A stretch of 64,000 nucleotides of DNA from Candidatus Aminicenantes bacterium (GCA_963843505.1 CAWJKR010000013.1:36775-100774); one strand, 5' to 3'. Shown: positions 8,835 through 30,767, counted from the stretch's first letter. Numbers and translations are program-made. Notes: generated by a model from the letters alone, not told the origin.

Positions 8835-9081
8835 AGATCACCCCATCATCGATAACTCTATAGCAAACTCCGTGCCAGACGAAACCCGCGAAGTCCCGGC
8901 CATTGGCTTGAAAATGGCCTGAAAAGGGCCCCCTCGGGCATCCCGGTGGCGGACGCCCAGGCCTGCTTTGCGGAACAGAATATGGCCCGGCAGGACGAGA
9001 CAACAGGATATTCGGGGCCTCAGGCCGGACGGATCGTCACAAAGACGTCCGGCGAGCGTATTCCGTGGCCCGTTCGGTTCC

Positions 9082-15614: not shown

Positions 15615-16020
15615 ATCAACCTCCTTTTCTATCTTGCCTCTCGCTGTCCTGCGCCTCGCCGTCATTGGAAGGCGCACGGACTCGGGAGAAGCACCTTCGC
15701 TTATGCCGATTTCATGCCAAGAAATTCCCGCTCTCTCTGACGGTCCGGAAACCGGTTTCCCCCCTGAGAAAGACCGAAATCCAGGCGGCGGGGACTATCA
15801 GAAGTTCCCGAAAGGCATCATACAGACTGCTTCGTACCCAGGGATCAATCCGTCAAATGGCACTTGTCCTGTTCTTCAGGAAACGCCTCCGGTCCCCATG
15901 CCGAGGGATCCTTGAATCAAGAGAGCTCCGCTTTCGAAGTTACGCCCCGGATGCCCTGGTGTAATATAGGAGAGCGGATCCGAACGCGCAAGAGAACCGC
16001 GAATTCCCATGGAGGTGCAC

Positions 16021-16752
16021 ATGACCGTCAAGATCGAAGGCCACAAGCTTCTGGCCGTCTATTCCGGCGTCCTGACCCTCGCCGTGGCCGTGGCTCTGCT
16101 CACGGGCGCCGCGCGGCCGCGGAGCGCGAGCTTTTCCTCGATCGACGTCCAGCGGATCAACGTCGTCGAGCCCGACGGGACGGTCCGGCTGGTCCTCTCC
16201 AGCAAGGCCCTCTTTCCGGGCATTCTCTTCAAGAAGAAGGAATACCCGCATCCCAACCGGGCCACGGCCGGCATCCTCTTCTATAACGACGAGGGCACGG
16301 AGAACGGCGGCCTGACCTTCGGGGGCGAGAAGGACAAGGACGGGAAGGTCAGCGCTTACGGTCACCTCAGCTTCGACCAATACGACCAGGACCAGGTCCT
16401 GACCCTCGACGCGTCGGAGGACGACGGCTACCGGAAGGCCCGGTTCTCGATCTGGGACCGGCCCGAGTATTCGATCGGCGAGCTGCTCGAGCTCCAGGGC
16501 CGGATCAAGGACATGACCCAAGAGGAGCAGAAGGAAGAGTACGCCAAGTTCTTCGCCGGGCGCGGCCAGGCCCAGCCCCGGCTCTTCCTGGGGAAGAGCG
16601 ACAACGGCGCGGTCTCGCTGCGGCTCAACGACGCGCAGGGCAAGGAACGGCTCATCGTCGAGGTGGCGCCCGACGGCGCCCCTGTCGTCCGCTTCCTCGA
16701 CGCGAGCGGCCGGGAGACCGGACGGATCCCGGCCGAAAAAGATAAAGACTAG
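16021..16752 (+). CDS. membrane-anchored hypothetical protein
   Basis: ATG at 16021 has GGAGG 5 nt upstream (ORF track starts at 16009). N-terminal anchor LLAVYSGVLTLAVAVALLTGA, then a soluble beta-rich domain. No family recognised. Confidence 0.6.
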   Translation: MTVKIEGHKLLAVYSGVLTLAVAVALLTGAARPRSASFSSIDVQRINVVEPDGTVRLVLSSKALFPGILFKKKEYPHPNRATAGILFYNDEGTENGGLTFGGEKDKDGKVSAYGHLSFDQYDQDQVLTLDASEDDGYRKARFSIWDRPEYSIGELLELQGRIKDMTQEEQKEEYAKFFAGRGQAQPRLFLGKSDNGAVSLRLNDAQGKERLIVEVAPDGAPVVRFLDASGRETGRIPAEKDKD

Positions 16753-18362
16753 CCGCGGATCGTGGCCGCCTTCTCGTGGATGCCCGTGGCCCCGTCGGGG
16801 AAGGGCGGGTGGTCTTCGGTGATCTGGGGCTCGCCCGCGCCGTTGTAGGCGCGAACCCGGAAGATGTGCTTCCCCGGGGTCGCCTTCCAGTCATAGCGCC
16901 ACTGGACCCAGGTCAGCGGGCTGAGCGCCGGCAGGCGCAGCTCGGCTTTCTCCCAGGGGTCGCCGTCCACGCGCACCTCGACCATGCTGATGCCCCTGTC
17001 GCCGGCGTAGGCGATGCCTCCGACCGGGACGAGGCCGGTCTCCGGGGCGGGGGCGCCCGCGGCGACGGCGTCGATGACCGACGTCGTCCGGACGCGGGCC
17101 GTCTCGCTCCAGTCCCGGTCGACCCAGAAGCCCTTGCCCTTATGGTCGATGGCCTCCATCCGGACGATCCACTTGGGCTGCTTCATCCCGAAATGACCGG
17201 GGATGTAGACGCGCAGGGGAAAGCCGTGGTCGGCCGTCAGCGGCTCGCCGTTCATCTCGTAAACGAGCAGGGTGCGGCCGTCCAGGGCCTCGCCGAGAGG
17301 AACGCTCTCGTAGAAGCCGTCGGCCGACTCGATAGAGATCTCCTTGACGCCCTCCTTCAACCCCGCTTCTTCGAGAATGGCCTTGAAGGGGACGCCCGTC
17401 CAGAAGCTGGTGCTGATGAGGTCGCCGCCGACCGGGTTGGAGATGCAGGACAGGGTTAGCGCCTGGGTCTGCCGCGGCTTCGACCGGATGTCGTCGAGGG
17501 ACAGTTCGAGCGGATGGTCGACGAGCCCCCCGAGCTTCAGTCGCCAGGCCTTGCCGTCGACCTTGGGAGGCTGCAGGTTGATGTCGATCCTGTAGAAATC
17601 CCGGTTCGAGGTCAGCTCGGCGCGGGTGCCGGGGACGGGCGGGAATCTCTTTTCGAGCTCTCCGGCGGCGGGGGAGGCGGCCGGTCCCGAAGTCCCGCCG
17701 GCCCTGACGATTTCCTCCCGGTCGATCTCGCTCAGCGACGCCTTCTTCCTCTTGGACACGACGCTGACGCCGGCGGCCGTGACCATGACCACGAAGGAGC
17801 CCGTCCCGACCAATCGGAGGAACCGCCGCCGCGAGATCGTGTCCTCGGGCGAAGCCTCGGAGGCCGCCGAGAGCGCGGAGAGCGTCCTGCCGAGCAGGGC
17901 CCCGCCGCCGATGAGGACGAGGCCCAGCCACGGCAGGGCGGCCAACGGGCTCGCCTCGGCGAATCCCCGGGCCGCCTCAATGCCTGTCGCGGAGAGGAAG
18001 AGGAGCAGCCCGCCGATCGCGCCGTACAGCGTCAGGCGTTCCGGCCGTCGCCGCCCAGCGACGCCCAGGATCAGGCCGAAGACGACCCAGGTCGCGGCGA
18101 ATTGGACCAAGGCCATGCCCTGCTCGGCCAGCTTGGCCGTGGAGGCGGTCGGCCCCAGCCTGAGCCCCCGGATGATCATGACCATGGTATCGATCGAGGT
18201 CGCGACCAGCCGGCCGGGAAGGACGCGGGCCAGCCAATCGAAGATGTCGAACGGAAGGTAGGGCAGGCCGGCGAGCCGGTTCCCGAGATAGGTCGCCGCG
18301 ATGACCACGAGTCCCGCCACGAGCCCGAATGTTCCCGTTCTGACCGCGCTGGGCTTATCCAT
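16749..18362 (-). CDS. molybdopterin-dependent oxidoreductase (sulfite-oxidase/YedY fold) fused to an N-terminal polytopic membrane domain
   Basis: Intact 537-aa ORF. About 170 aa of TM helices, a TAT-like RRRFLRL, then FYRIDINLQPPKVD, LTLSCISNPVGG (Mo-ligand Cys region), GFPLRVYIPGHFGMKQPKWIVRMEAID, and a C-terminal Ig-like dimerisation-type domain. Confidence 0.85.
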   Translation of the reverse strand: MDKPSAVRTGTFGLVAGLVVIAATYLGNRLAGLPYLPFDIFDWLARVLPGRLVATSIDTMVMIIRGLRLGPTASTAKLAEQGMALVQFAATWVVFGLILGVAGRRRPERLTLYGAIGGLLLFLSATGIEAARGFAEASPLAALPWLGLVLIGGGALLGRTLSALSAASEASPEDTISRRRFLRLVGTGSFVVMVTAAGVSVVSKRKKASLSEIDREEIVRAGGTSGPAASPAAGELEKRFPPVPGTRAELTSNRDFYRIDINLQPPKVDGKAWRLKLGGLVDHPLELSLDDIRSKPRQTQALTLSCISNPVGGDLISTSFWTGVPFKAILEEAGLKEGVKEISIESADGFYESVPLGEALDGRTLLVYEMNGEPLTADHGFPLRVYIPGHFGMKQPKWIVRMEAIDHKGKGFWVDRDWSETARVRTTSVIDAVAAGAPAPETGLVPVGGIAYAGDRGISMVEVRVDGDPWEKAELRLPALSPLTWVQWRYDWKATPGKHIFRVRAYNGAGEPQITEDHPPFPDGATGIHEKAATIRG

Positions 18363-18449
18363 CGTCCCCCCTCGCCTTCGGCGGGAGCGCCGCAGGTCTT
18401 TTTTTCGTTAAAACCATGATACCACAAGGCCGCCCGCGACGGGATATCC

Positions 18450-18478
18450 TTGACCGCGGCCCGGGCCGGGGATATCAT
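18450..18478 (+). promoter_or_regulatory. sigma70-type promoter candidate (TTGACC-N17-TATCAT)
   Basis: TTGACC at 18450-18455 and TATCAT at 18473-18478, followed by GGAGG at 18491 and the ATG at 18503. Confidence 0.5.
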
Positions 18479-18502
18479 CGGGGCCCAAGAGGAGGCGCCT
18501 TC

Positions 18503-18880
18503 ATGCCGCGCGAACGTCAGGACAACGAGCCGCCTTCGGCCATCGCCGAACTGGGCTGGCGCTACCACCATCTCGGCGTCCCGACCACGGTCCCTCATCC
18601 GGGCGAGGTCTACCTGCCGCATCTCAAGCTGTATGTCTCGGGCTTTCGGACGAGCCCTTTCGGCATCGAATGGATGCGCTTCGAGCCCGGCTGCGGGATC
18701 TCGGAGCTGGTGCGGACGGTGCCGCACATCGCCTTCGAAGTCGACGATCTCGAGGCCGCGCTGGCCCGGCTGGGGGCGACGGCCGAGATCACCTCGCCGT
18801 CCGAGGGGGTCCGGGTGGCCATGATCACGGATAACGGCGCTCCCGTGGAGCTCATCGAGTTCCGCCGCAGGCGGCCTTGA
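18503..18880 (+). CDS. VOC (glyoxalase/bleomycin-resistance fold) family protein
   Basis: Inner Met of ORF 18416..18880 with GGAGG upstream. YHHLGVPT ... PHIAFEVDDLEAAL ... VAMITDNGAPVELIEF is typical of the VOC beta-alpha-beta-beta-beta modules. Confidence 0.65.
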   Translation: MPRERQDNEPPSAIAELGWRYHHLGVPTTVPHPGEVYLPHLKLYVSGFRTSPFGIEWMRFEPGCGISELVRTVPHIAFEVDDLEAALARLGATAEITSPSEGVRVAMITDNGAPVELIEFRRRRP

Positions 18881-18906
18881 CCTTCTGATTCCGCCGGCGA
18901 TATGAT
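18877..18906 (+). promoter_or_regulatory. sigma70-type promoter candidate (TTGACC-N18-TATGAT)
   Basis: TTGACC at 18877-18882 (overlapping the VOC stop) and TATGAT at 18901-18906, followed by GGAGG and the ATG at 18935. Confidence 0.45.
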
Positions 18907-18934
18907 GTCCGCACCCCATCGGAAGGAGGCCCTC

Positions 18935-20566
18935 ATGTCCGTATTCCGCCGCACTTCCCGCGCCGCCCTCGCAGTCGCGTTCGCCGTCTTGATCCTCTCT
19001 CAAGCCCTGCCGCCGCTCCAGGGCGCCGAGCCGGCGCCAGATGCCCGGGCTCAGAAGACCGTCGCCGGGGTGCCGCCCGGGATCGACGCGACCGTCGCCC
19101 GGGCCATGAAGGCCTTCGAGGTCCCCGGGCTCGCCCTGGCCATCGTCAAGGACGGCCGCGTCGTCCTGGCCAAGGGCTACGGCGTCCGGAAGCTTGGCGA
19201 CCCGGCGCCGGTCGACGGCCGGACGCTCTTCGGCATCGCCTCGAACACCAAGGTCTTCACCGCCACGGCGCTCGGCCTCCTCGTCGAGGAGGGCAAGCTC
19301 GCCTGGGACGCGCCCGTCGTCGACTATCTCCCGTGGTTCATGATGTACGATCCCTACGTCACCCGCGAGCTCAGCGTCCGCGACCTTCTCGTCCACCGCA
19401 GCGGCCTGGGGCTCGGGGCCGGCGACCTGCTGTGGTGGCCGGAATCGACCTATAACCGGGAGGAGGTCGCGCGGCGCCTGCGCTATATCAAGCCGGCGAC
19501 GTCCTTCCGGAGCGCCTACGCCTACGACAACGTCCTTTACCTCGTCGCCGGCGAGGTCATCCAGGCCGTGTCCGGCATGTCGTGGGAGGATTTCGTCGCC
19601 GACCGCATCCTGAAGAAGGTCGGCATGGCCGGGAGCAACGTCCGCCATTCGGCGGCGGCCGAAAGCGGCAACGTCGCCACGCCGCACGCCAAAGTCGAGG
19701 GCGCTGTGAGGCCGATCGCCCCGTTCACGAGCGACAACACCAATCCGGCGGGAGGCATCAACTCCGGGGCCGAGGACATGGCCAAGTGGATGCTCGTCCG
19801 GTTGGCCCGGGGCAAGCTGGCCGACGGCGCCGCGCTCTACTCGGAGCGGACCGCGCGGCAGATCGAGACCCCGGTGACCATCGTGCCGAATTCCGCCCCG
19901 CCGGCCGAGCTGGCGGCCCTGAAGTCGAACTTCGCCGCCTATGCCCTCGGCTTGGGGATCCGCGAATACCGCGGCCAGCGCGTCATCACCCATACCGGAG
20001 GCTTGCCGGGCTATGTCTCGATCGTGACGCTTCTCCCGGAGCGCAACTTCGGCGTCGCCATCCTGACGAACGCCGAGTCGACGAACGCTTTTTCCGCCCT
20101 CACCTGGCAGATCGTGGACAACGATCTCGGCGCCCCGGCGACGGACTGGACGGCCGCTTTCCTCAAGCTGCAGGCCCGGTTCGACGAGGAGACCCAGAAG
20201 GCGCTCGGCGAGTCCGCGGCGGCCCGGGACGCCTCGTCGAAGCCCTCGCTGCCCCTGGCGAAATACGCCGGCGTCTACACCGACGCCTGGTACGGCGACG
20301 TCGCCGTCGAGGAGACCGGAGGCCGGCTGGTCATGCGCTTCTCCAAGACGCCCGCGCTCGTCGGCGATATGGAGCATTGGCAATACGATACCTTCATCGT
20401 CCGCTGGCGCGACCGGGAGCTCCGGGCCGACGCCTACGTGACGTTCGCCCTCAATCCCGACGGCTCCATCGAACGGGCCAGGATGGAAGCGGTCTCGCCG
20501 GAGACCGATTTCAGCTACGACTTCCAGGACCTCGACCTCCGGCCCGCGCCCAAGCCCCGGCGCTGA
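18935..20566 (+). CDS. serine hydrolase, beta-lactamase/PBP4 (class C-like) family with a C-terminal DUF3471-type domain
   Basis: Intact ORF with inner Met MSVFRR... after GGAGG. Signal peptide, then the S-x-x-K motif in FGIASNTKVFTA. Also LLVHRSGL, YDNVLY, and HTGGLPGY (KTG-like HTG). Confidence 0.85.
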   Translation: MSVFRRTSRAALAVAFAVLILSQALPPLQGAEPAPDARAQKTVAGVPPGIDATVARAMKAFEVPGLALAIVKDGRVVLAKGYGVRKLGDPAPVDGRTLFGIASNTKVFTATALGLLVEEGKLAWDAPVVDYLPWFMMYDPYVTRELSVRDLLVHRSGLGLGAGDLLWWPESTYNREEVARRLRYIKPATSFRSAYAYDNVLYLVAGEVIQAVSGMSWEDFVADRILKKVGMAGSNVRHSAAAESGNVATPHAKVEGAVRPIAPFTSDNTNPAGGINSGAEDMAKWMLVRLARGKLADGAALYSERTARQIETPVTIVPNSAPPAELAALKSNFAAYALGLGIREYRGQRVITHTGGLPGYVSIVTLLPERNFGVAILTNAESTNAFSALTWQIVDNDLGAPATDWTAAFLKLQARFDEETQKALGESAAARDASSKPSLPLAKYAGVYTDAWYGDVAVEETGGRLVMRFSKTPALVGDMEHWQYDTFIVRWRDRELRADAYVTFALNPDGSIERARMEAVSPETDFSYDFQDLDLRPAPKPRR

Positions 20567-20582: not shown

Positions 20583-20611
20583 TTGACCGGTCCTGCGACC
20601 GCGGCTATCAT
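20583..20611 (+). promoter_or_regulatory. sigma70-type promoter candidate (TTGACC-N17-TATCAT) for the heme-copper operon
   Basis: TTGACC at 20583-20588 and TATCAT at 20606-20611, followed by GGAAGGAGG and the ATG at 20642. The hexamers are identical to those at 18450-18478. Confidence 0.5.
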
Positions 20612-20641
20612 GCCTTCGGGAAGGGAAGGAGGCCCGCATTC

Positions 20642-21198
20642 ATGGTCGATTCAACCGTCGTCCTCTGGGGACAGACGCTGGCTTATACGCTTCTACGCGA
20701 TCGCCATGATCCTCGTCGTCGGCTGGGTCGGCTGGCGGCTGACGAAGCCGGGCAAGGGGGGCGGGGTCAAGCCGGCCCTGTTCTTCACCTTCGTCGCTTT
20801 CCTGACCGTCCTCGGCGTCTCGCTGCATCTCGATCACGCTGAAGACCATCCCCTGGGTCGAGCCCGACCTGCACCGGGCCAGCGTCCAGGTGGACAAGAC
20901 CTTCGAGATCCGGGTCGCCAACCACGAATTCCAGCTCCCGGAGGCCCGGCTCGTCGTCAAGGTCGGCGAGAAGGTCCGCTTTGACGTCGCCTCGGACGAC
21001 CTGACCTACGGCTTCGGGGTCTTCCGGCCCGACCACTCCATGGTCTTCCAGATGCAGGTCGTCCCGGGCCACAAGAACGACGTCATCTGGCGGTTCACCA
21101 AGCCCGGGCTCTACACCATCCGCTCGACCGAATACTCGGGCCCCAAGGGCGCCCAGATGATCCTCAAAGACGCCATCGAAGTCCTGGAAGCGAAGTGA
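20642..21198 (+). CDS. heme-copper oxidase subunit II-like cupredoxin protein lacking CuA ligands; two apparent frameshifts
   Basis: MVDSTVV... start after an SD sequence. TM helix YAIAMILVVGWVGW. Cupredoxin domain FEIRVANHEFQLPEARLVVKVGEKVRFDVASDDLTYGFGV...YTIRSTEYSGPKGAQM. Compared with Thermus ba3 subunit II (DVIHGF...CNQYCGLGHQNM), the H, C, C and H ligands are Y, S, S and G here. Frame changes near 20690 and 20830. Confidence 0.7.
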
Positions 21199-21208
21199 GG
21201 GGACGATC

Positions 21209-22849
21209 ATGAGCATCTTCCAGACACTGATCAACGGGGAACAGGGCTTGTTCAAGCCGAAGACCCTGACGCCGATGCAGAAGCTGACCCTGAGGTTCGT
21301 CGTCGTCGGCCTCGTCTACTTCGGCTTCGCCCTCATCGAGGGGATGATCATGCGGATCTACGAGGTCCAGCCCATCCCCTTCATCAAATCGAACCAGTTC
21401 TTCGCCATCATGACGGCCCACCCGCTCGTCGGCATCTTCGGGTCGTCCTACTCGATCGTCTTCGGCGCCTTCCTTTTCCTGGTGCCGTTCCTGATGAAGA
21501 AGCCGCTGTGGAGCTTCAAGCTCGCCGGCTGGACCTTCTGGCTGATGACGGTCGGCACCATCGTCTTCTGGGGCGCGGGATTCGTCTCCCACTACGCGCC
21601 CCTCTACACGCTCTACTGGCCCCTCCCGGCCGATTTCAGCCAGTTCAGCGCCCTCGGCGGCGCCTTCTTCATCCTGGGCATCGCCCTGGCCATGCTGGGC
21701 GCCGCTTTCTTCGTCATCAACATCTTCAAGACCATCACCTACACCCCCAAGGGCTGGGAGAAACAGCCGGCCGGCGCGCTCCTGGCCTCGGCCCTCGGCT
21801 GGACGGGCATCCGGAACCTCTTCAGGAAGAAGAAGGAGGCGCATCTCGTGCCCCTGCCCGTGGCCGCCGTCGCCCGGGGCAGCGTGGACGTGGCCCTCAA
21901 TTCCGCCACCATCCTGTTCACTGGGGTCCTCATCCTCGTCTATATGGTCGCGGAGCTCTTCGGCACGAGCCTCAAGCACACGGCCATCGACGCCTTGCTC
22001 TACAAGAACTGGTTCTGGTGGGGCCTCGACCTCGTCGCCGACGGCCTCGTCCTCATCTTCGTGGCCGGCACATGGTATCTCCTGGCCATGCTGATCACGG
22101 GCAAGGCCCTGTTCATGCAGAATATCGCCCGGGCCGCCCTGCTCGTCGAGCTCGTCGTCTCCTGGACGGTCTGGTCGCACCACCTTCTCTCCGACCAGGC
22201 CCAGCCGGCCCTGCTCAAGGTCGTCTCGGGCGAGATGGTGACCGCCTTCGAGCTCATCACCCAGGGCCTGGCCTTCTTCATCACCCTGGCCACGCTCTGG
22301 AGCGCCCGGCCTCTCAAGATGTCGAACGAGCTCAAATTCCTGCTGGGCGGGCTCCTCGGGTTCGCCCTCGGCGTTCCCGCCGGCATCATCCAGGCCGACG
22401 TCGGCCTCAACCGCATCCTCCACAACACCCAGTGGGTCGTCGGGCCGCACGTCCACGTCGCGGTCCTGGTCGGCCTGACCATGACCCTCCACGCGGCCAT
22501 CTACCTCCTTTTCCCGATCCTGACCAACGGCGCCAAGCTCTACAGCCAGAAGCTGTCCAATATCCAGTTCTGGGCCCACCTTACGGGCGGCATCGGCATG
22601 GGCGCCTTCATGGGCATGGCCGGCCTGCAGGGCATGCTGCGCCGGACGATCTACTACAACGGCGAATTCAACATCTATATGATCCTGGCCGCCCTCTGCG
22701 GCGGGCTGGTCCTCCTGGCCTTCCTGTGTTTCTTCATCAACATCGTGATGAGCGTCGGGCTGAAGGGCCTGCTGGGCATCTTCGGACGATCGTCGCTCGA
22801 CAAGGACCGGCTCCTGCCCGGCCGGGGAATGAGGCGGAGAGCGAAGTAA
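21209..22849 (+). CDS. heme-copper oxidoreductase superfamily subunit I, B-family/NOR-like, with Asp replacing the helix-VI metal-ligand His (gNOR-like)
   Basis: Intact 546-aa ORF with 12+ TM helices. Conserved: MTAHPLVGIF (H71), PLYTLYWPL, WSHHLL (H324/H325), HNTQWVVGPHVHV (H414/H416). Helix VI reads FWWGLDLVADG (D274 at 22028-22030, D278 at 22040-22042), where oxidases have FWWxGHPxVY and NorB has WWVVHLWVEG. Confidence 0.85.
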   Translation: MSIFQTLINGEQGLFKPKTLTPMQKLTLRFVVVGLVYFGFALIEGMIMRIYEVQPIPFIKSNQFFAIMTAHPLVGIFGSSYSIVFGAFLFLVPFLMKKPLWSFKLAGWTFWLMTVGTIVFWGAGFVSHYAPLYTLYWPLPADFSQFSALGGAFFILGIALAMLGAAFFVINIFKTITYTPKGWEKQPAGALLASALGWTGIRNLFRKKKEAHLVPLPVAAVARGSVDVALNSATILFTGVLILVYMVAELFGTSLKHTAIDALLYKNWFWWGLDLVADGLVLIFVAGTWYLLAMLITGKALFMQNIARAALLVELVVSWTVWSHHLLSDQAQPALLKVVSGEMVTAFELITQGLAFFITLATLWSARPLKMSNELKFLLGGLLGFALGVPAGIIQADVGLNRILHNTQWVVGPHVHVAVLVGLTMTLHAAIYLLFPILTNGAKLYSQKLSNIQFWAHLTGGIGMGAFMGMAGLQGMLRRTIYYNGEFNIYMILAALCGGLVLLAFLCFFINIVMSVGLKGLLGIFGRSSLDKDRLLPGRGMRRRAK

Positions 22850-22860
22850 AGGAGGCGGCC

Positions 22861-23058
22861 GTGGCAAAAAAGATCGGTTTGGGATTTGTTCTCCTGATCC
22901 TGATAGCCATCGTCTTCATCCAAAACCCGGGTGAGGTCAGCTACAGGATCTACTTCTGGAGGATCAGCCTCTCCCAGATGATCCTCCTGCCCCTGACCCT
23001 GCTAATGGGGTTCTTCCTCGGCCTCTTCGCGGCGGGAATCCGGAGATCCCGGCCCTGA
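22861..23058 (+). CDS. LapA/DUF1049-like small membrane protein (65 aa)
   Basis: GTG start 5 nt after AGGAGG. Two TM helices: KIGLGFVLLILIAIVFIQNPGEVSYRIYFWRISLSQMILLPLTLLMGFFLGLF. Lies 11 nt after subunit I. Confidence 0.6.
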   Translation: MAKKIGLGFVLLILIAIVFIQNPGEVSYRIYFWRISLSQMILLPLTLLMGFFLGLFAAGIRRSRP

Positions 23059-23070
23059 ACTCCAAGTGCT

Positions 23071-25864
23071 ATGGACGCGCGCAAGATCATCGGGTTCGGG
23101 ATCATCGTCGCGGTTCTCGCCATCGGGGCCGCCGCCGCTGAACAGGCCGGCCTTGGGTCGGTCACGCTGTCCGGTCCCGCGGGGGCGGAAACGACCATCT
23201 CAGGGCTGACGATGGCCGACGGCGCAGAAGATCGCCTTGGCGACGCCGCTACCGCTCTTTTCTCTCCTCGTCGACGGGCGGCTGACGACGGCCTCGGCCC
23301 TGCCGGCCGGGCTCGCCTTCACCGTGACGCCCGAGGAGGGCTTCGCGCCCGGCGCCAAGCTCAAGGTCGTCTTCCGGAACGACGCCAAGTCGAAGATCAC
23401 GCTCGAGAACCTCGTCCCGCTCGGCGAGGGCGCCGACCGGGCCTACATCACGGCCGGCCTGCCGAACGAGGAGCCCCACACCCTCGACCGGAGCCAGCTC
23501 TTCCGGCCCGGGCTCCGGCCGATCGGCGTCCTGCTTCCGGACAACGCCTGGCACCTGGGCTTCTGCTCCGTCGAGACGGGAGGCGCCGCGGGCACACTGA
23601 CCGCGATCGCCCGCCGGGTCAAGACCGACAAGGCCGAGCGCACTCGCTGGGCCTCGATCCTCGAGCCGGGCGGCTCGGTCGAATACGCCCTCTACTTCGA
23701 AGCCCACCCGGGCGGCTGGCGCCGCGGGCTCGAGATCATGTTCCGCGAGCGCTTCCTCTACGACCTCGAGAAGTTCGACGACGCCCTGTTCCGCCGCTCC
23801 GACCTGGCCTGGGTCCGGCGGGCCTACCTCATGGTCCTGCAGTTCGCCTGGGACCGGACCTACTATGACCGCGATGCCGGCCGCTACGCCTTCGACCGGA
23901 CCCTGACGGCCTGGGACAAGTCCCTCGGCCCCATCGACATCTTCACCATCTGGCCGACCTGGCCCCGGCTCGGGCTCGACGCCCGCAATCAATGGGACAT
24001 GTACCGCGACCTGCCCGGCGGCCTGGCCGAGCTCAGGCGCCAGGTCGACCTGACCCACAAGCTCGGCAAGAAATATTTCATCTCCTACAATCCCTGGGAC
24101 GAGAGCACGCGCCACGAGGACCACATCGCCGGCATGGAGGCCATGCTCCGGACGCTCGACGCCGACGGCGTCGTCCTCGACACCCGCGGCGAGTCGAGCC
24201 GCGAGTTCCAGGCCGCGGCCGACCGGGTCAAGCCCGGCGTCATCATGTACAGCGAGGGCATGGCCGTGCCGCGCGACATGCCCGGCATCGTCTCCGGCCG
24301 CGTCCACGACGCGCTCTATATGCCGCCGCCGCTCAACATGAACAAGTACATGCGGCCCGATTTCGCCATCTTCCGGGTCCTGCAGCTGGCCGAGGGGCCG
24401 CTCCACCGCGAGTCGGCCGTGTCGTTCTTCAACGGCTACGGCTCGGAGATCAACACCATGCGGCCGGGCCGGCCCGACTGGATCGAGGAGGAGCTCCGCT
24501 ATCTCGGCCGGACGACCAAGCTTCTGCGCGAGAATTCGACGGCCTTCCTCGATCCCGGCTGGGAGCCGCTCGTGGCGACCCTCGAGGACGGCCTCTGGGC
24601 CAACCGCTGGCGCGACGGCGCGAAGACGGTCTGGACGGTCTTCAGCCTGCGGCCCGAGGGATACAAGGGCCCGCTCGTCGAAGTCGGAGGTGCCGGAAGG
24701 CGCCCATCTCGTCAGCCTGTGGAACCACGAGGAGCTCGAGCCCGTCGGCGCGGAACGGGAAAAGCTATGCCCCGGTCGACGTCGCCGCCTTCGACGCCGC
24801 CCGGCTCGGGACGCGGACGGAGGCGAATGTCGATTGTCTCGCCGTTCTGCCCGAGCTCGTCAAGGTCGAGGCCGACGGCGAGCTGGTGACGTTCGAGGCG
24901 CCCGGCGCGCCCGCCGGCAGCCGGATCGCCGTCTCGGCCGGGAACCCTTCTTACGCCGAGAGCGCCGGCCTCGTTCGGGACGGAGCGGCGGACGATCGCC
25001 CTCCACGAGCACTTCGGCTTCCGCGAGGAGAAGTTCGTCGTCCAGCTTTTCGACGGGCGGGGCGAGCTCCTCGACGAGCGCGTCGTCCGCCTGCCTTTGG
25101 CTTATCCGCGGCTCACAACACGGGTCGAGAGGACGGCCCCGGCTTCGAAGGCCCCGGCCGGCATGGTCGAGGTGCCCGGCCGGGACGTTCGTCTTCAAGA
25201 CGGCCGGCAACCCCGACGACGCCAACCCGGTCATCCCTTACCCCGATACGAAAACGCCCCGCACGCCTCGAGATGCGCCGCTTCTTCATGGACCGCACGC
25301 CGGTCACCAACGCCGCCTTCGCGGCCTTCCTCGCGGCGACCGGCTACGCGCCGGCCGACGCGTCGAACTTCCTGAAGCACTGGGTCGACGGCAAGCCGCC
25401 GGCCGGCCAGGGCGATCATCCGGTCATCTGGGTTTCGCTCGAAGACGCCCGGGCCTACGCGAAATGGGCCGGCGAAGCGCCTGCCGACGGAAGCCGAGTG
25501 GCAGTACGCCGCGCAGGGCACGGACGGGCGGCCTTTCCCCTGGGGCAAGAAGATGGAGCCCGGCCGCTGCAACAACAAGCTCAACCGGACGACCTCCGTC
25601 ACCGCCTTCCCCAAGGGGGCGAGCCCCTTCGGCGTCCTGGACATGGTCGGCAACGTCTGGCAGGTCATGGACGACGTCTACGACAACGGCGTCTACCGCT
25701 ACGGCATCATCCGCGGCGGCAGCTTCTACGCGCCGGAGAAGAGCGTCTGGTACGTCAAGAGCGGGCCGCTCGCCGTCGACCGGGTCCAGATCCACCTGCT
25801 CATCGCCCCGGGCCTCGACCGCGCGGCCACGGTCGGCTTCCGCTGCGTCAAGGACGCGGATTAG
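23071..25864 (+). pseudogene. large secreted/anchored protein: unknown ~550-aa N-terminal domain + C-terminal FGE-sulfatase (SUMF1/NirV-type) domain; at least 7 apparent frameshifts
   Basis: Anchor MDARKIIGFGIIVAVLAIGAAAA. The long N-terminal domain includes ...KKYFISYNPWDESTRHEDHIAGMEAMLRTLDADGVVLDTRGE.... FGE motifs in the tail: FFMDRTPVTNAAFAAFLAATGY, HPVIWVSLEDARAYAKWAG(K)RLPTEAEWQYAAQG, GNVWQVMDD, IIRGGSF, VGFRCVKD. The pieces are spread over all three + frames. Confidence 0.7.
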
Positions 25865-28800
25865 TCCCGCAGGCCCGCAGTATCGCCGAAGCGCCGCGCC
25901 CGTGTGCGACGACGCGCAGGCCGCGACGGCCTCCGGCCTTCCCTGGACGACGAGCGATCCGCCCTCGTCGCCGCCCTCAGGCCCGAGATCGATGACGTGC
26001 CCGGCCCGCGAGATGAGGTCGAGGTCGTGTTCGACGGCGACGATGGTCTGCCCCGCGGCGAGGAGCCTTCCGAAGAGACCGAGCAGCCGGTCGACGTCGG
26101 AGGGATGGAGGCCGGTCGTCGGCTCGTCGAAGATGTAGAGAGCGCGGCCCGGGCGCGGGTCCATCAGCTCCGACGCGAGCTTGAGGCGCTGCCTTTCGCC
26201 GCCCGAAAGGGTGTCGAGGGATTGGCCGAGCCGCAGATAGTCGAGCCCGATCTCGGCGAGCAGGGCCAGAGCCGCCGCGATCTTCGGCTGTCCGGAGAAG
26301 GCCGTCGGCGCCCTCGGCCGCGGTCAGGTCGAGGACGTCGGCGATCGTCCGGCCGGATACCCGCACCCCGAGAACGCTTCGATCGTACCGCGCGCCCCGG
26401 CAGACCTCGCAGGGCACGGAGACGTCCGCCAGGTGGTCGAGGCTGACCGTCTTGCGGCCGGTCCCGCCGCAGGCCCCGCAGCGGCCTTCGGGCGTCAGGA
26501 ACGAGAAATGGGCCTTCTTGAAACCCGCCGCCCGGGCCTCGTCCGACGCGGCGAAGATCCCGCGGACGGCGTCGAACAGCCCCAAGTAGGTGAGAGGAAT
26601 GCTCGAGGCGCTTTCGGCCGGGGCCTCGATCCCCGCCGCGACGACCTTGGAAAAACGGCCGAGCCCGCGGATCTCGGAACAGGAGACCGGACGTCCGGCC
26701 TCGGCCGAGGCCAGGATGACGTCGAAGGCCAGGCTCGACTTCCCGCTCCCCGAAACGCCGGTCACGGCCGTCAGGACCCCCGAGGGAATGGCGACATCGA
26801 TCCCCTTGAGATTGTTCGCCCGGGCCCCGACGATCGCTAAAGCCGGTCCAGGCGATCCCGGAAGAGGCCCTGGGCGAACGGCGCGGCCGGCGAGGTAAGG
26901 CCCGGTCACCGAGCCGGGCGTCCCCTCGATCCTCGCCGGCGGGCCTTCGGCGACGATCCGGCCGCCGTCGCGGCCGGCGCCCGGCCCGAGGTCGATGACG
27001 TGATCGGCCGCCCGGACGACGTCGAGATCGTGCTCCACGGCGACGACGGTGTTGCCCTCCGCCGTGAGGCCGCGGATGAGATCGACGAGCTTGGCGGTGT
27101 CGCGCGGATGGAGCCCGAGCGTCGGCTCGTCCAGGACGAAGGTGACCCCGGTGAGCTTGACGCCGAGGAGCGCGGCCAGGCGGAGCCGCTGGGCCTCGCC
27201 TCCCGAAAGCGTGGCCGAGCGGCGGTCGAGGCTGAGATAGCCCAGCCCGACGTCGCGGATGAGACCGAGCCGGCGCGCGATCTCGCCGCGGACGGCCGCG
27301 GCCACGGCGGCCGTCCGCGCATCGGCCGGCGCCGCGTCGCCGCGGTCGGAAAAAAAGTCCAGGCTCCGGTCCACGGAGAGCGCGGACAGGGCCGCGATGT
27401 CGAGTCCCCGGTAGGTCACCGCCAGGGACTCCGGCTTGAGCCGGCGGCCGCGGCAATCCGGGCAGGGGTCGTCCCTCATCAGGACCCGCATCGCCTCGCC
27501 GCGGCGGTCGGCGTGCTTGCGCTCGTATTCCTCGGCGACGAGGGCGGCGAATCCCTTCCACGGGCCCCGGAACCTGAAATCCCCGGCCCGGTTGCCCCGC
27601 TTGTAGGACCAGACGATGTCGTAGACGCGGTCGCCCGTCCCGTTGAGGGCGACCTCCCGTTCGGACCCGGTGAGGTCCGCGAACGGCTTGGAGAAGTCCA
27701 TCCCGGCCGCCTCGCCGGCCGCCCGCAGCGCGGCGACGAACTGGCCGTGGGGATCGCCGTAGAAGCGTCCCGTCTTCGTCCCGTCCATGGCCCCGTCGAG
27801 GAGCGATCGGCGCGGATCGGTGATCAGCCGCTCCGGATCGGTCACGGTCATCGTCCCGAGCCCCTTGCACCGGGGACAGGCGCCCTGTTCGTGATTGAAG
27901 GAGAACATCGAAGCCGTCAGGGGTCGCGCCGCCGGATCCCGGCGGAGGCGTCCCGGCCCGGGAATAGAGCAGCCGGTAGTAGTCGTGGATCTCGGTCATC
28001 GTCCCGACGGTCGAGCGGGGGTTCGGGGTCGAGGAGGCCCGGGCGACGGCGATCGGCGGCGTCAAGCCGCGGGCCGAGGCGAAGTCCGCCCGGCCGCCCT
28101 TGTCGATGAGCGCGCGGACATAGGCCGAGAAGCTCTCGATGTACCTTTGGCGGGAGGCGGCGAACAGCGTGTCGAAGACGAGCGAGGACTTGCCGCCGCC
28201 GGACGGCCCGCAGACGGCGGTGAACTTGCGGAAGGGGATGCGGACGTCGATCCCTTTGAGGTTGTGGGTCGAGACGCCTTCGAGGACGATGGGCCCGTCC
28301 GCTTCGGGGCGCTCCCGGCCCGGGGCCGCGGGCTCGTCGTCCGTCCCGCGTTCCCCCCGGAGGGCGCGCCCCGTGAGCGAGGCGGCGCAGGCCGCGATCT
28401 CCTCGGGCGGGCCGCAAGCGACGACGCGGCCGCCGTCCTCGCCGCTCCCCGGGCCGAGATCCACGACGCGGTCGGCGGCCCGGATGACGTCGGGATGATG
28501 CTCGATGGCGATGATGGTCCGGCCGAGGGAGACGAGCTCCTGGAGCGCCGTGAGCAGGTTCTCGACGTCGGCCCGGTGAAGGCCCGTCGTCGGCTCCTCC
28601 AGGACGTAGAGGACCGGCCCGGCCGCCGCCCGGCTCATTTCCGAGGCGAGCTTGACGCGCTGGGCTTCGCCTCCCGACAGGGTCGTCGAGCTCTGGCCGA
28701 GCTTGAGGTAGCCCAGGCCGAGGCGCTTCAGGACCTCGAGGCCGGCCGCGAGACGCCGCGATCCGGCATAGAACACGGACGCCTCCGCGACGCTCATCTC

Positions 28801-30767
28801 CAGGACGTCGTGGATCGATCTCCCACGGTCCCTCACGGCGAGCGTCTCGTCGTTGAAGCGGCGGCCCTCGCAGTCGGGGCAGACGATGTCGACGTCGCCC
28901 AGGAAGTGCATGCCGATCTGCAGGAGCCCGGCGCCCTGGCACGTCTCGCACCGGCCGCCGGCGACGTTGAACGAGAACCGGCCCTTGCCGAAGCCTTTGG
29001 CCTGCGGCTTCGGGGAGCGCGGCGAACAGGTCGCGGATGCGGTCGGAGAGGCCCGTGTAGGTCGCCGGATTGGACCGGGGCGTCCGGCCGATGGGGGATT
29101 GGTCGACCTCGACGACGCGGCCCGCGGTCCCTTCGACCTCGACGCCGTCGGCGTCCGGTCCCGGCCCGAAGCGCCCGGTCCGGAGCCGTTCGGCCAGGAC
29201 GCGACGGACGAGCGTGGATTTGCCCGCGCCCGACACGCCCGTCACGACGTTCAAGGCGCCGAGGCGGAACTCGACGTCGACGGACTTGAGGTTGTGCAGG
29301 CGGGCCCCCCGGACGAGGAGCCGTCCCGTTCCGGAGCGGCCGCGGGAGCGGATGGCGGGGACCCTGTCGCCCGTCAGGTAATCGCGGGTCAGGCTCTCGC
29401 CCCGCGGCAGCCCGGCGATCGCGGCCGCCGGACCTTGATAGAGGACCCGGCCGCCCGCCTCCCCCGGGCCCGGCCCGAGGTCGATGAGATGGTCGGCCGC
29501 GCGCATGACCTCCTCGTCGTGCTCGACGACGAGGACCGTGTTGCCGTTGTCGCGGAGCTCGGCCAGCAGGTCCCAGGAGCCGCGCGGTGTCGGCCGGATG
29601 AAGGCCGGCCGTCGGCTCGTCGAGGACGTAGAGGACGCCCCGCAGCCCGCTCCGGGCCTGCGCGGCCAGCCGGATGCGCTGGATCTCGCCGCCGGAGAGC
29701 GTGTCGGCGGCGCGGTCGAGGCGCAGGTAGCCGAGCCCGAGGCGTTCGAGGAGGCCGTCTTCCCGAGCAGGGACTCGCGCACCGCGTCGCCCGCGGCCCG
29801 GCAGGACGGGTCGAAGGCCAGGCTCCGGAACTCCGCGGCCAGGCCGCGGACGCTCATCTCGCTGAAGTCGGCGATGGTGCGCCCCGCGACGGTCACCCGG
29901 AGGGACTCGGGCCTGAGGCGGCGCCCGCCGCAGGCGCGGCAGGCGAGCGTCCGGGCGAAGCGCAGGATGTTGTCGTTCCTTTTGGCTTTGAGGATGGTCT
30001 CCATGACCGGCAGGATGCCCTTGTAGAGTCCCTTCCTCCCGCGGCTTGGCGACGATGCCCTTCCAGCGGAGCCGCGATTCGAGCGGGTGCTTGCCGTAGC
30101 GGATGAGGATGCGGTCGCTCCCGTCGAGGACGACGCGGCGCTGGTCCTCGGTCAGGTCGCGCCAGGGGATGTCGACGGAAAAGCCGTGGGCCCGGCAGAC
30201 CTCGTCCAGGACCTCCATGGTCACCTGGGAATAGATGATGTATCCGTTCGGCGTCGTCAGGGCCAGGGCCCCCTGCCGCAGGGTCTTGGCCGGATCGGAG
30301 ACGAGGAGATCGGGATCGATGCGGTCCTCGACGCCCAGGCCCCGGCAGACCGGGCAGGCCCCTTCGGGGGAGTTGAACGAGAACATCCGCCGCGACAGGC
30401 GCAGCCCGTCGGGCGAATGCCCGAGACGGGCGAAGAGCAGCCGGAGGTCGTCGTGGATCTCGGTCAGCGTTCCCACCGTGGACCGGGGACCCGGCGACGA
30501 GATCCTCTGGCTCACGGCCACGGCGGGGGAGAGGCCGCTGACATGGCCGACGTCGGGCCGCCGGAGCTTGCCCATGAACTGGCGGGCGTAGGACGAGAAG
30601 GTCTCGAGGTAGCGCCGCTCGGCCTCCCGGAAGATGACGTCGAAGACGAGCGAGGATTTTCCCGAACCGGAAACGCCGGTGACGACGGTCATCCGGCCGT
30701 GGGGGATGTCGACGTCGATGTCACGGAGGTTGTTCTCGGCCGCGTGGCGGACGGTCAGGACGCTCAT
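25861..30767 (-). pseudogene. tandem-duplicated UvrA-like ABC ATPase (two class-II, UvrB-binding-domain-less UvrA units in one frame); roughly 8-10 apparent frameshifts
   Basis: Four ABC modules in series. (1) [32 protein letters not shown]...[12 protein letters not shown]. (2) [30 protein letters not shown]...[12 protein letters not shown]. (3) [33 protein letters not shown]...[12 protein letters not shown]. (4) [33 protein letters not shown]...[12 protein letters not shown]...SHTG. No stop or obvious start separates units 1 and 2. The 3' end is uncertain: ORF 25424..26164 runs on, and a TAA at 25861-25863 is reached after a 1-nt shift. Confidence 0.75.

What the first reader, a model, noticed from the sequence alone, without database searches (positions are those of the whole stretch)
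20583..23058. Heme-copper-superfamily operon with a 2-His / 2-Asp active site and a CuA-less cupredoxin subunit (gNOR-like putative nitric-oxide reductase)
**Seen in the sequence.** Subunit I (21209-22849, intact) keeps the low-spin heme His (H71 in MTAHPLV), the helix-VII HH pair (H324/H325 in WSHHLL) and the helix-X H-x-H (H414/H416 in GPHVHV). Helix VI, however, reads F-W-W-G-L-D-L-V-A-D-G.

Aligned by eye to Thermus ba3 (FWWTGHPIVY) and to cNOR NorB (WWVVHLWVEG):
- The first CuB/FeB-ligand His becomes Asp274 (22028-22030).
- The position four residues later becomes Asp278 (22040-22042). That position holds the cross-linked Tyr in B-type oxidases and the FeB-ligating Glu211 in cNOR.

Subunit II (20642-21198) is a cupredoxin in which every His/Cys CuA ligand is replaced (only the Met position is retained): DLTYGF...RSTEYSGPKGAQM against DVIHGF...CNQYCGLGHQNM.

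**Established knowledge (from memory).** One active-site His replaced by Asp, plus a CuA-less cupredoxin subunit, is what was proposed purely bioinformatically for the 'gNOR' family of the heme-copper superfamily (Hemp and Gennis; the Sulfurimonas denitrificans genome paper). I know of no biochemical characterisation.

**Inference.** The site probably binds non-heme iron through carboxylates and two His, and reduces NO rather than O2. The electron entry route is unknown, since there is no CuA and no adjacent cytochrome c.

The operon is tight. It has a near-consensus promoter, and subunit I, a LapA-like 65-aa membrane protein and an FGE-like giant protein follow one another with 10-12-nt gaps.
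Basis: partly seen in the sequence, partly recalled or inferred. Interest (0 to 1): 0.8.

Follow-up and report, generated by a model that had tools for sequence, protein, structure and literature searches.

The report
gNOR-type putative nitric oxide reductase
This is a two-gene membrane enzyme of the respiratory oxidase superfamily whose copper site has become a two-histidine, two-aspartate site; it fits a family (gNOR, norGH) already proposed from sequence to reduce nitric oxide, so it is a new member of a known but never purified kind.

Summary
Subunit I (21209-22849) is a heme-copper oxidoreductase. Asp274 sits at the helix-VI metal-ligand His and Asp278 at the cross-linked Tyr position. 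All heme His and the helix-VII His-His pair are kept. Subunit II (20642-21198) is a cupredoxin without CuA ligands.

These features are invariant in 245/245 relatives and 86/86 subunit II sequences. They match the published definition of gNOR (norGH), a family related to B-type oxidases and proposed, without biochemistry, to be a quinol-dependent NO reductase. I could not obtain a named gNOR reference sequence, so membership rests on features.

- Subunit I is not fully intact. A third +1 insertion at about 22816 rewrites its last six codons.
- The two subunit II frameshifts belong to 16 single-base insertions private to this window (20692-30027), most likely consensus errors. dN/dS is 0.06 and 0.12.
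- The LapA-like ORF occurs in 0/88 related loci and the FGE-like gene in 7/88. The conserved unit is two genes.

New context:
- At least 557 GTDB species carry the gene, mostly anaerobes.
- An Rrf2 regulator lies upstream in 46/88 loci and a hemerythrin-domain protein nearby in 15/88.
- Invariant Glu44 aligns with Asp75 of the bo3 quinol site.

Verdict: new member of a known kind. Moderate interest.

The parts
20583..20611 (+). Sigma-70-type promoter-like site, TTGACC-17-TATCAT.
   Evidence: 10 of 12 matches, with 0.3 sites expected in shuffles. Both hexamers are kept almost unchanged in the L001 and L002 alignment (TATTAT in L002). This is a pattern match only; no transcription data exist.
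20628..20632 (+). GGAGG ribosome-binding site, 9 nt before the subunit II ATG.
   Evidence: Sequence read directly. Conserved in L001 and L002.
20642..21198 (+). norH-like subunit II: two predicted N-terminal hydrophobic (transmembrane-type) stretches plus a CuA-less cupredoxin domain. In this window it is read in three frames because of +1 insertions at about 20692 and 20831.
   Evidence: - Intact 184/185-aa orthologues exist in L001 and L002.
- Three-frame tblastn match at 93-100% identity; insertions located.
- Pfam COX2 E 1e-4; aligns to the ba3 CuA domain.
- The CuA positions read Y/S/E/S/G(H)/M in 86/86 sequences.
- dN/dS 0.12 against L001.
21209..22849 (+). norG-like subunit I, heme-copper oxidoreductase superfamily, 12 predicted transmembrane helices. 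A +1 insertion at about 22816 alters the last six codons.
   Evidence: - Pfam COX1 E 2.9e-54.
- AF2 model with pLDDT 83.6 and pTM 0.88. Foldseek TM 0.73-0.77 to A-type subunit I structures.
- Relatives are 540 aa and end in LLPAEK.
- dN/dS 0.06 against L001.
22028..22042 (+). Helix-VI motif D274-L-V-A-D278. Asp replaces the CuB/FeB-ligand His and the cross-linked Tyr (Glu211 position of cNOR).
   Evidence: Alignment to ba3 H233 and Y237. D274 and D278 are invariant in 245/245 family members at 41-97% identity.
22178..22183 (+). H324-H325, the two retained non-heme-metal ligands in helix VII.
   Evidence: Aligned to ba3 H282 and H283. Invariant in 245/245.
21419..21421 (+). H71, low-spin heme ligand in helix II.
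   Evidence: Aligned to bo3 H106 in the profile alignment. Invariant in 245/245.
22448..22456 (+). H414-V-H416, axial ligands of the high-spin and low-spin hemes in helix X.
   Evidence: Aligned to ba3 H384 and H386. Invariant in 245/245.
21338..21355 (+). E44...R49 near the C-terminal end of helix I, a candidate quinol-binding site.
   Evidence: The profile-to-bo3 alignment puts E44 on D75 and R49 on R80. Q63 (Q in 121 and H in 82 of 245) falls on H98. E44 is present in 243/245 and R49 in 244/245. The site assignment is inferred.
22861..23058 (+). LapA-like 65-aa hydrophobic ORF. It is NOT a conserved part of the system.
   Evidence: Pfam LapA_dom scores 26 bits, below the cut-off of 28. It lies in an insertion absent from L001, L002 and L003. 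No tblastn or blastn match in any of 88 related loci.
23071..25864 (+). Gene for a large protein with a C-terminal FGE-sulfatase domain. It is a lineage-specific downstream neighbour and is broken here by about eight +1 insertions.
   Evidence: The intact 949-aa orthologue in L001 matches PF03781 at E 2.7e-42. It follows the oxidase in only 7/88 loci, all with the Aminicenantes-type gene order.

Best explanation
The locus encodes a two-subunit enzyme of the gNOR (norGH) family of the heme-copper oxidoreductase superfamily, in a genome closest to Candidatus Aminicenantes MAGs.

Shown:
- Subunit I keeps both heme sites (H71/H416 low-spin, H414 high-spin).
- Its non-heme metal site is built from H324, H325, D274 and probably D278.
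- It lacks the His-Tyr cofactor that O2 reduction needs, and it lacks the B-type K proton channel.
- Subunit II is a membrane-anchored cupredoxin that cannot bind CuA.

Inferred:
- Electrons enter from menaquinol at a site on helices I and II near the low-spin heme (E44, R49, Q/H63). They pass to the high-spin heme and the carboxylate-rich, probably iron, centre.
- There two NO are reduced to N2O.
- No denitrification gene was seen among the window ORFs scanned or among the recurrent neighbours in related loci, and most hosts are anaerobes. Other lineages place an Fe-S-type Rrf2 regulator and a hemerythrin-domain protein next to the genes. The likeliest role is therefore NO detoxification or scavenging rather than a step of complete denitrification.
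- The three frameshifts in this copy are most likely consensus errors of the assembly, so the operon is probably functional in the organism.
For: Fold and kinship:
- COX1 fold and heme ligands.
- D274 and D278 lie on ba3 H233 and Y237, and both are invariant in 245/245 relatives down to 41% identity. No other conserved His is available.
- The CuA ligands are lost in 86/86 subunit II sequences.
- A family profile hits A- and B-type oxidases at 63-80 bits and cbb3 at about 40 bits. No cNOR or qNOR hit reaches E 0.001.
- ba3 K-channel residues Y244, S261, S309, T312 and T315 are not kept.

Literature:
- The published gNOR definition matches point by point (PMC11214002; PMC8756737 Table A4).
- PMC8906906 calls norGH a quinone-oxidising, non-electrogenic NOR.
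- gNOR is reported in Bacteria and Archaea, as found here.

Quinol site: E44 aligns with bo3 D75 and Q/H63 with bo3 H98.

Context in 88 related loci:
- Subunit II lies upstream in 85 loci.
- An Rrf2 regulator with three Cys lies upstream in 46 loci.
- A hemerythrin-HHE protein lies nearby in 15 loci, including archaeal-type loci.

Selection:
- dN/dS is 0.06 for subunit I and 0.12 for subunit II.
- The protein stays at least 76% identical across phyla, while gene GC tracks host GC from 34 to 65% (r 0.95).

Frameshifts: 16 private +1 insertions and no frame-breaking deletion across four consecutive genes. Further split genes lie elsewhere in the window.
Against: - No member of the family has been purified. 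The metal and the substrate are unknown.
- I could not obtain a named gNOR reference sequence (Sulfurimonas, Methylomirabilis Damo_1118) or the curated family HMM. Membership therefore rests on features, not on phylogenetic placement.
- A preprint states that gNOR has a His-to-Glu heme-ligand substitution (10.1101/592808). That is not seen here.
- The Rrf2 regulator scores best against Suf and Isc regulators, not NsrR, and all scores are below cut-off. The hemerythrin match to YtfE/DnrN is weak.
- Neither the Rrf2 nor the hemerythrin gene occurs in this window.
- Whether the frameshifts are errors cannot be decided without reads.
Confidence: 0.6

Rival explanations
1. The operon in this particular genome is a decaying pseudogene. 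On this reading the frameshifts in subunit II and at the end of subunit I are real mutations.
For: Three +1 insertions lie within 2.2 kb, two of them inside subunit II. The next two genes downstream are also broken.
Against: - All 16 frame-breaking changes between 20692 and 30027 are single-base insertions private to the window. None lies in a homopolymer, and there is no accompanying deletion or stop codon. Bacterial gene decay is usually deletion-biased (established knowledge).
- dN/dS stays at 0.06 and 0.12, and the shifted segments remain 93-100% identical to intact orthologues.
- Unrelated genes elsewhere in the window (GH106, AcrB) are split too.
- The nearest relatives come from assemblies whose contigs are named contig_N. 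I read that as long-read assembler naming, which is my inference.
Confidence: 0.12
2. The enzyme is an O2-scavenging quinol oxidase for anaerobes. It would be a low-turnover oxidase or peroxide-forming enzyme rather than an NO reductase.
For: - The closest solved relatives are all O2 reductases.
- The hosts are mostly anaerobes that would benefit from O2 removal.
- Rrf2 Fe-S regulators and hemerythrins also respond to O2 and oxidative stress.
Against: - The His-Tyr cofactor, which PMC11214002 states is required for O2 reduction in this superfamily, cannot form. Both partners are Asp in 245/245 sequences.
- No Tyr has moved into helix VII. The position six residues before the HH pair is an invariant Ser318. 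That this position corresponds to the C-family Tyr is my recollection.
- The B-type proton channel is lost.
Confidence: 0.12
3. The 2-His/2-Asp centre binds a different metal (Mn, Zn or none), and the enzyme acts on another substrate. Candidates are N2O, nitrite, a peroxide or a sulfur species.
For: - YeeE/YedE sulfur-transport proteins and rhodanese genes follow the operon in 13-16 Bacteroidales loci.
- The literature links gNOR to sulfidic habitats.
- The metal has never been measured.
Against: - The sulfur genes are lineage-specific and absent from this window.
- Carboxylate-plus-His sites next to a heme are the cNOR/qNOR solution for NO (PMC11214002).
- A 2-His-1-Glu myoglobin mimic reduces NO (Lin et al. 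2010, as cited in PMC11214002).
Confidence: 0.1

Closest known systems
gNOR (norGH) family of heme-copper oxidoreductases (Hemp and Gennis 2008; Sievert et al. 2008; Murali et al. 2024, PMC11214002)
   Same: - Asp in place of an active-site His, and D at the Tyr position.
- A CuA-less cupredoxin subunit II.
- Descent from O2-reductase families.
- No B-type K channel.
- A candidate quinol site.
- Presence in both Bacteria and Archaea, and a bias toward anoxic and sulfidic habitats.
   Different: - Nothing tested contradicts membership.
- The named hosts in the literature are Sulfurimonas, Sulfurovum, Persephonella and Methylomirabilis. None of these appeared among the listed hits here. Only the top 80-150 hits are shown, so their absence is uninformative.
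- The hosts seen here are Aminicenantes, Bacteroidales, Ignavibacteria, Chloroflexota and archaea.
- The preprint claim of a His-to-Glu heme ligand in gNOR is not seen.
B-family ba3 cytochrome c oxidase of Thermus thermophilus (PDB 1EHK, 1XME)
   Same: - It is the only solved hit of the single sequence, for both subunits.
- The heme ligands, the HH pair, the HNT motif and the Arg-Arg propionate pair are all kept.
- Subunit II has a cupredoxin fold.
   Different: - H233 becomes D and Y237 becomes D.
- All CuA His and Cys ligands are lost.
- The K-channel residues are lost.
- There are 12 predicted helices here. ba3 has 13 (from memory).
cNOR (NorBC) and qNOR
   Same: Both lack the Tyr cofactor. 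The presumed chemistry is the same.
   Different: - cNOR and qNOR keep three His ligands plus Glu.
[quoted passage not shown]
- No cNOR or qNOR chain reached E 0.001 with the family profile.
Cytochrome bo3 ubiquinol oxidase
   Same: - Subunit II is a cupredoxin without CuA.
- Electrons come from quinol.
- E44, R49 and Q/H63 align with D75, R80 and H98 of the bo3 quinol site.
   Different: - bo3 keeps three His ligands plus Tyr and both proton channels, and it reduces O2.
- R71 and Q101 of the bo3 site have no counterpart here (F/L40 and A66).
eNOR, bNOR, sNOR and nNOR (other NOR families derived from B-type oxidases)
   Same: They also arose from O2 reductases by loss of the Tyr cofactor.
   Different: They keep all three His ligands. 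The residue at the Tyr position is Q in eNOR and N in sNOR and CuANOR (Table A4); nNOR has the cNOR-type residues. The literature describes CuA in bNOR and conserved proton channels in all four.

Membership tests
gNOR (norGH) | Subunit I belongs to the heme-copper oxidoreductase superfamily and has both heme ligand sets. | tested here: met
   Pfam COX1 E 2.9e-54. H71, H414 and H416 align to known ligands and are invariant. The AF2 model matches oxidase subunit I structures at TM about 0.75.
gNOR (norGH) | One of the three active-site His ligands is replaced by Asp. PMC11214002 describes this as unique to gNOR. | tested here: met
   D274 aligns to ba3 H233. It is invariant in 245/245, and helix VI has no His.
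gNOR (norGH) | Asp at the position of the cross-linked Tyr (Table A4 of PMC8756737, after Hemp and Gennis 2008). | tested here: met
   D278 aligns to ba3 Y237. Invariant in 245/245.
gNOR (norGH) | The secondary subunit has a cupredoxin fold and lacks the CuA-binding residues. | tested here: met
   It aligns to the ba3 CuA domain, with Y/S/S/G at H114/C149/C153/H157. The same holds in 86/86 relatives, with H at the last position in 6.
gNOR (norGH) | Related to the B (and A) O2-reductase families, not to the C family, cNOR or qNOR. | tested here: met
   The single sequence hits only ba3. The profile scores 63-80 bits against A and B types and about 40 bits against cbb3, with no cNOR or qNOR hit. 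The nearest non-family relatives carry GHPxVY.
gNOR (norGH) | No proton channel equivalent to the B-type K channel. | tested here: met
   ba3 Y244, S261, S309, T312 and T315 correspond to V, M/G, Q/M, A/T/S and I/A. Other invariant polar residues exist (Y290, S318, T345, E348, T351, T362); their role is unknown.
gNOR (norGH) | [quoted passage not shown] | tested here: inconclusive
   E44, R49 and Q/H63 align to bo3 D75, R80 and H98. I could not read which residues the authors named.
gNOR (norGH) | Placement inside the gNOR clade by the curated family HMM or by a tree with named references (Suden, Damo_1118). | not testable with these tools
   No named reference sequence or curated HMM could be retrieved.
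gNOR (norGH) | His-to-Glu substitution of a heme ligand (claimed in preprint 10.1101/592808 only). | tested here: not met
   H71, H414 and H416 are invariant in 245/245. The peer-reviewed descriptions do not list this feature. I treat it as a discrepancy in the preprint, not as a defining feature.
gNOR (norGH) | Nitric oxide reductase activity. | not testable with these tools
   This has never been measured for any member (PMC11214002).
B-family O2 reductase | CuB bound by three His, a His-Tyr cross-link, and CuA in subunit II. | tested here: not met
   D274, D278 and the lost CuA ligands.
cNOR / qNOR | FeB bound by three His plus Glu, kinship with the C family, and NorC or a fused quinol domain. 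| tested here: not met
   Only two His are available. The profile finds no cNOR or qNOR chain. The partner subunit is a cupredoxin.

The most novel reading that the evidence does not exclude
The highly conserved main clade to which this gene belongs is found in at least 557 GTDB species of mostly non-denitrifying anaerobes. It stays at least 76% identical across phyla despite fully host-adapted codon usage. On the novel reading it is not a respiratory enzyme. It would be a quinol-driven NO-detoxifying module with a 2-His/2-Asp non-heme iron site, controlled in the Bacteroidota, Ignavibacteria and Chlorobi lineages by an Fe-S Rrf2 sensor. Fermentative and sulfidic-sediment anaerobes would then be an unrecognised source of N2O.
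Probability: 0.35. Interest if true: 0.6.

Novelty: new member of a known kind. Interest (0 to 1): 0.35.

Why it matters
gNOR is the only heme-copper family reported to have given up one of the otherwise universally conserved active-site histidines. It has never been purified, so its metal, substrate and energy coupling are open questions.

This copy adds no new kind of system. The survey around it does sharpen the case for an experiment:
- The family is far more widespread than the published counts (156 GTDB genomes in 2021-24 against at least 557 species now).
- It is under unusually strong purifying selection.
- It is carried mainly by anaerobes that are not classical denitrifiers.
- It often sits beside an Fe-S-type regulator and a hemerythrin-domain protein.

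If the enzyme does reduce NO, these organisms belong in N2O budgets for anoxic soils and sediments.

Tried and rejected
Named gNOR reference sequence. I tried several routes and none worked:
- The supplements of PMC11214002 and of the FIND preprint are not held.
- The BBA 2022 quinol paper, the Sulfurimonas genome paper and Lin et al. 2010 are not held.
- Cluster look-ups gave no organism names.
- A second homologue search seeded with the 46% relative P0123 gave archaeal, Chloroflexota and Actinobacteria members, but no Campylobacterota, Aquificota or NC10.

Other searches that led nowhere:
- A plasmid search found nothing, so there is no sign of plasmid-borne spread.
- A literature search combining gNOR with taxon names returned only noise.
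- NCBIfam has no model for the family. The best hits (CtaD 106 bits against a cut-off of 670; CcoN 61 against 583) are far below cut-off.
- Foldseek confirmed the fold but did not discriminate between families. Model coordinates are not exposed, so I could not measure the metal-site geometry.
- Rrf2 and hemerythrin genes were not found in the window.
- No denitrification gene was found in about 40 window ORFs scanned. A weak multicopper-oxidase fragment at 46818-48191 has no NirK-type domain set.

Readings I rejected:
- The LapA-like and FGE-like genes as subunits.
- Recent horizontal transfer as the cause of the high cross-phylum identity. Gene GC tracks host GC with r 0.95.


Full report
**What is in the sequence.**
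The region holds two co-oriented genes behind a promoter-like site (TTGACC-17-TATCAT, 20583-20611) and a GGAGG ribosome-binding site.
- Subunit I (21209-22849, 546 aa) matches Pfam COX1 at E 2.9e-54.
- Against all solved structures the single sequence hits only Thermus thermophilus ba3 subunit I.
- That alignment places D274 on H233 (the CuB ligand that cross-links to Tyr) and D278 on Y237 (the cross-linked Tyr).
- It places H324/H325 on H282/H283, H405-N406 on H376-N377, H414/H416 on H384/H386, and R478/R479 on R449/R450.
- A family profile aligned to bo3 places H71 on the heme b ligand H106.
- Helix VI contains no histidine. No histidine other than these six is conserved in the family.

**Subunit II.**
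The gene (20642-21198) is read in three frames in this window.
- Two close relatives have an intact gene of 184-185 aa. Against them the window carries two single-base insertions, at about 20692 and 20831.
- The C-terminal domain aligns to the ba3 CuA domain.
- Tyr, Ser, Ser and Gly stand at the CuA ligands H114, C149, C153 and H157. Met is kept at M160.
- In 86 of 86 subunit II sequences from related loci the motif IRSTEYSGP is invariant and the ligand positions are the same. Six archaeal-type sequences have His at the last position.

**Corrections to the observation.**
- Subunit I is not completely intact. A third +1 insertion at about 22816 turns the conserved ending LLPAEK-stop into LLPGRGMRRRAK-stop.
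- The LapA-like ORF (22861-23058; LapA_dom 26 bits, below the cut-off of 28) lies in a roughly 220-nt insertion that the nearest relatives lack. It has no match in any of 88 related loci.
- The FGE-sulfatase-domain gene follows the oxidase only in the seven loci with the Aminicenantes-type gene order. In this window about eight further insertions break it.
- The conserved unit is two genes. Subunit II precedes subunit I in 85 of 88 loci.

**Are the frameshifts real?**
- Against both L003 (97% protein identity) and L001, the window has 16 private single-base insertions between 20692 and 30027.
- None is in a homopolymer. They break four consecutive genes. The 4.6 kb of coding DNA just upstream has none.
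- GH106 and AcrB genes elsewhere in the window are also split.
- After the frames are corrected, subunit II has dN/dS 0.12 and subunit I 0.06 against L001. The shifted segments remain 93-100% identical in protein.
- An insertion-only spectrum together with intact selection signatures points to consensus errors in a long-read assembly rather than to decay. Only the reads can settle it.

**The family.**
- A search of 5.8 billion proteins gave 3420 hits at E below 1e-10. The best 120 were all at least 79% identical, and nearly all were 538-543 aa long.
- In a library of 1.84 billion 50%-identity representatives, only two full-length clusters lie near the query, at 76% and 46% identity.
- The next full-length hits are 29% identical or less. 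They carry GHPxVY (O2-reductase type) or H...N.
- The 46% cluster extends to Thermoprotei and Methanomethylicia archaea, Chloroflexota and Actinobacteria.
- Across 245 full-length members (41-97% identity), D274, D278, H71, H324, H325, H414 and H416 are invariant.
- In all, 101 positions are at least 98.5% conserved. They include E44, R49, Y290, S318, D329, Q332, T345, E348 and T351.
- A family profile scores 63-80 bits against A- and B-type oxidases and about 40 bits against cbb3. It finds no cNOR or qNOR chain at E 0.001.
- The ba3 K-channel residues are not kept.
- The AlphaFold model (pLDDT 83.6, pTM 0.88) is a 12-helix oxidase fold.

**Comparison with the literature.**
Murali et al. (PMC11214002) describe gNOR as follows:
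- It is the only heme-copper family that replaced an active-site His, with Asp.
- It has a cupredoxin subunit lacking the CuA residues, and candidate quinol-binding residues.
- It is related to the B family and is found in Bacteria and Archaea, mainly in sulfidic settings.
- It is uncharacterised biochemically.

Table A4 of PMC8756737, after Hemp and Gennis, lists D as the gNOR residue at the Tyr position and zero proton channels. PMC8906906 names the genes norGH and calls the enzyme quinone-oxidising and non-electrogenic.

Every one of these features that can be tested on sequence is met. I could not retrieve a named reference sequence or the curated HMM, so phylogenetic membership is untested. 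One preprint statement, a His-to-Glu heme ligand in gNOR, does not fit this clade and remains an unresolved discrepancy.

**How it probably works.**
- *Shown:* there are two heme sites, a non-heme site limited to two His plus carboxylates, no Tyr cofactor, no CuA and no B-type K channel.
- *Inferred, electron entry:* electrons come from quinol. Invariant E44 aligns with D75, R49 with R80, and Q/H63 with H98 of the bo3 quinol site.
- *Inferred, catalysis:* the DLVADG motif parallels HLWVEG of cNOR. The centre would then bind iron and reduce NO to N2O.
- *Inferred, role:* neither the window ORFs scanned nor the recurrent neighbours within 5 kb in related loci include nir or nos genes.

Other lineages give contextual hints:
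- An Rrf2 regulator with three Cys sits directly upstream in 46 of 88 loci.
- A hemerythrin-HHE protein is adjacent in 15 of 88 loci, including archaeal-type loci. Its similarity to YtfE and DnrN is weak.
- YeeE/YedE and rhodanese genes follow the operon in 13-16 Bacteroidales loci.

These hints fit an NO or oxidative-stress regulon and sulfidic habitats, but they do not prove either.

**Distribution and selection.**
- The GTDB scan found relatives in at least 557 species. The 80 best are 76-97% identical.
- They come from Aminicenantes (the nearest), Bacteroidales, Ignavibacteria, Chlorobiota, Anaerolineae, Gemmatimonadota and others.
- Gene GC follows flanking GC (r 0.95; 34-65% GC, GC3 0.22-0.98). 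The high protein identity therefore reflects strong constraint in resident genes, not recent transfer.
- No plasmid copy was found.

**Verdict.**
The function is still a hypothesis.
- The extended four-gene operon and the 'intact' subunit I are not borne out. The frameshifts are most likely artefacts.
- This is a new member of a known, uncharacterised family. Interest is moderate (0.35).
- The main value is as a pointer to an abundant enzyme that is unusually strongly conserved and still untested.

Noticed in passing
window 20692-30027: The window has 16 single-base insertions relative to both L003 and L001. All are insertions and none is in a homopolymer. They break four consecutive genes, while 15942-20566 has none in coding DNA. 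This looks like an unpolished long-read consensus.
   Followed up: yes
window 22850-23075: A roughly 220-nt insertion, visibly less G+C-rich than its flanks by eye, carries the 65-aa LapA-like hydrophobic ORF. It is absent from all 88 related loci and is not repeated elsewhere in the window. Its origin is unknown.
   Followed up: partly
window 23071-25864; L001:11678-14527: A 949-aa protein has a C-terminal FGE-sulfatase domain and an unannotated N-terminal region of about 700 aa. It directly follows the oxidase in the loci with the Aminicenantes-type gene order only. From memory, NirV of nirK clusters also belongs to this domain family, so a metal-centre maturation role is conceivable but untested.
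   Followed up: partly
window 25880-30767 (- strand); L002:15553-20463: A double-length UvrA-like protein (1636 aa in L002, with two UvrA DNA-binding domains). At least four frameshifts break it in the window, and it is also fragmented in L001.
   Followed up: partly
L011, L035, L041, L043-L045, L048, L050-L052, L060, L070, L078, L082 and others, 43-90 nt upstream of subunit II: A 20-bp palindrome, ATGnTAy-N6-rTAnCAT, lies between the Rrf2 gene and subunit II. It occurs in 16/46 Rrf2-containing loci (up to 2 mismatches), in 1/39 loci without Rrf2, and in 7% of shuffles. It is a candidate operator. The pattern was derived from the same data, so the enrichment is optimistic.
   Followed up: partly
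L083-L087 (archaeal-type loci; L083 lies on a 2.45-Mb contig): The two-gene unit also occurs next to a hemerythrin gene. In L083-L085 it lies near Fae, an F420-type luciferase-like gene and an HTH_10 regulator. That suggests an archaeon with C1 or methanogen-type metabolism.
   Followed up: no
window 16749-18362 (- strand): A 537-aa protein has a hydrophobic N-terminal half (by eye) and a molybdopterin oxidoreductase domain (Oxidored_molyb, E 2.3e-42). It is a conserved upstream neighbour in the loci with the Aminicenantes-type gene order.
   Followed up: no
window 35661-38337 and 55247-58236 (- strand): The GH106 alpha-L-rhamnosidase gene and the AcrB-family transporter gene are each split into two or more ORFs. 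This is consistent with window-wide indel errors.
   Followed up: partly
88 related loci (L001-L088): Subunit I stays at least 76% identical across phyla, while its GC3 ranges from 0.22 to 0.98 in step with the host genome (r 0.95). That is unusually strong purifying selection for a membrane enzyme.
   Followed up: yes
window 1856-9003 (- strand): An Omp85/POTRA (BamA/TamA-like) gene, a TamB gene and a DUF748/YhdP-like gene lie in a row. This is an outer-membrane assembly cluster unrelated to the finding.
   Followed up: no
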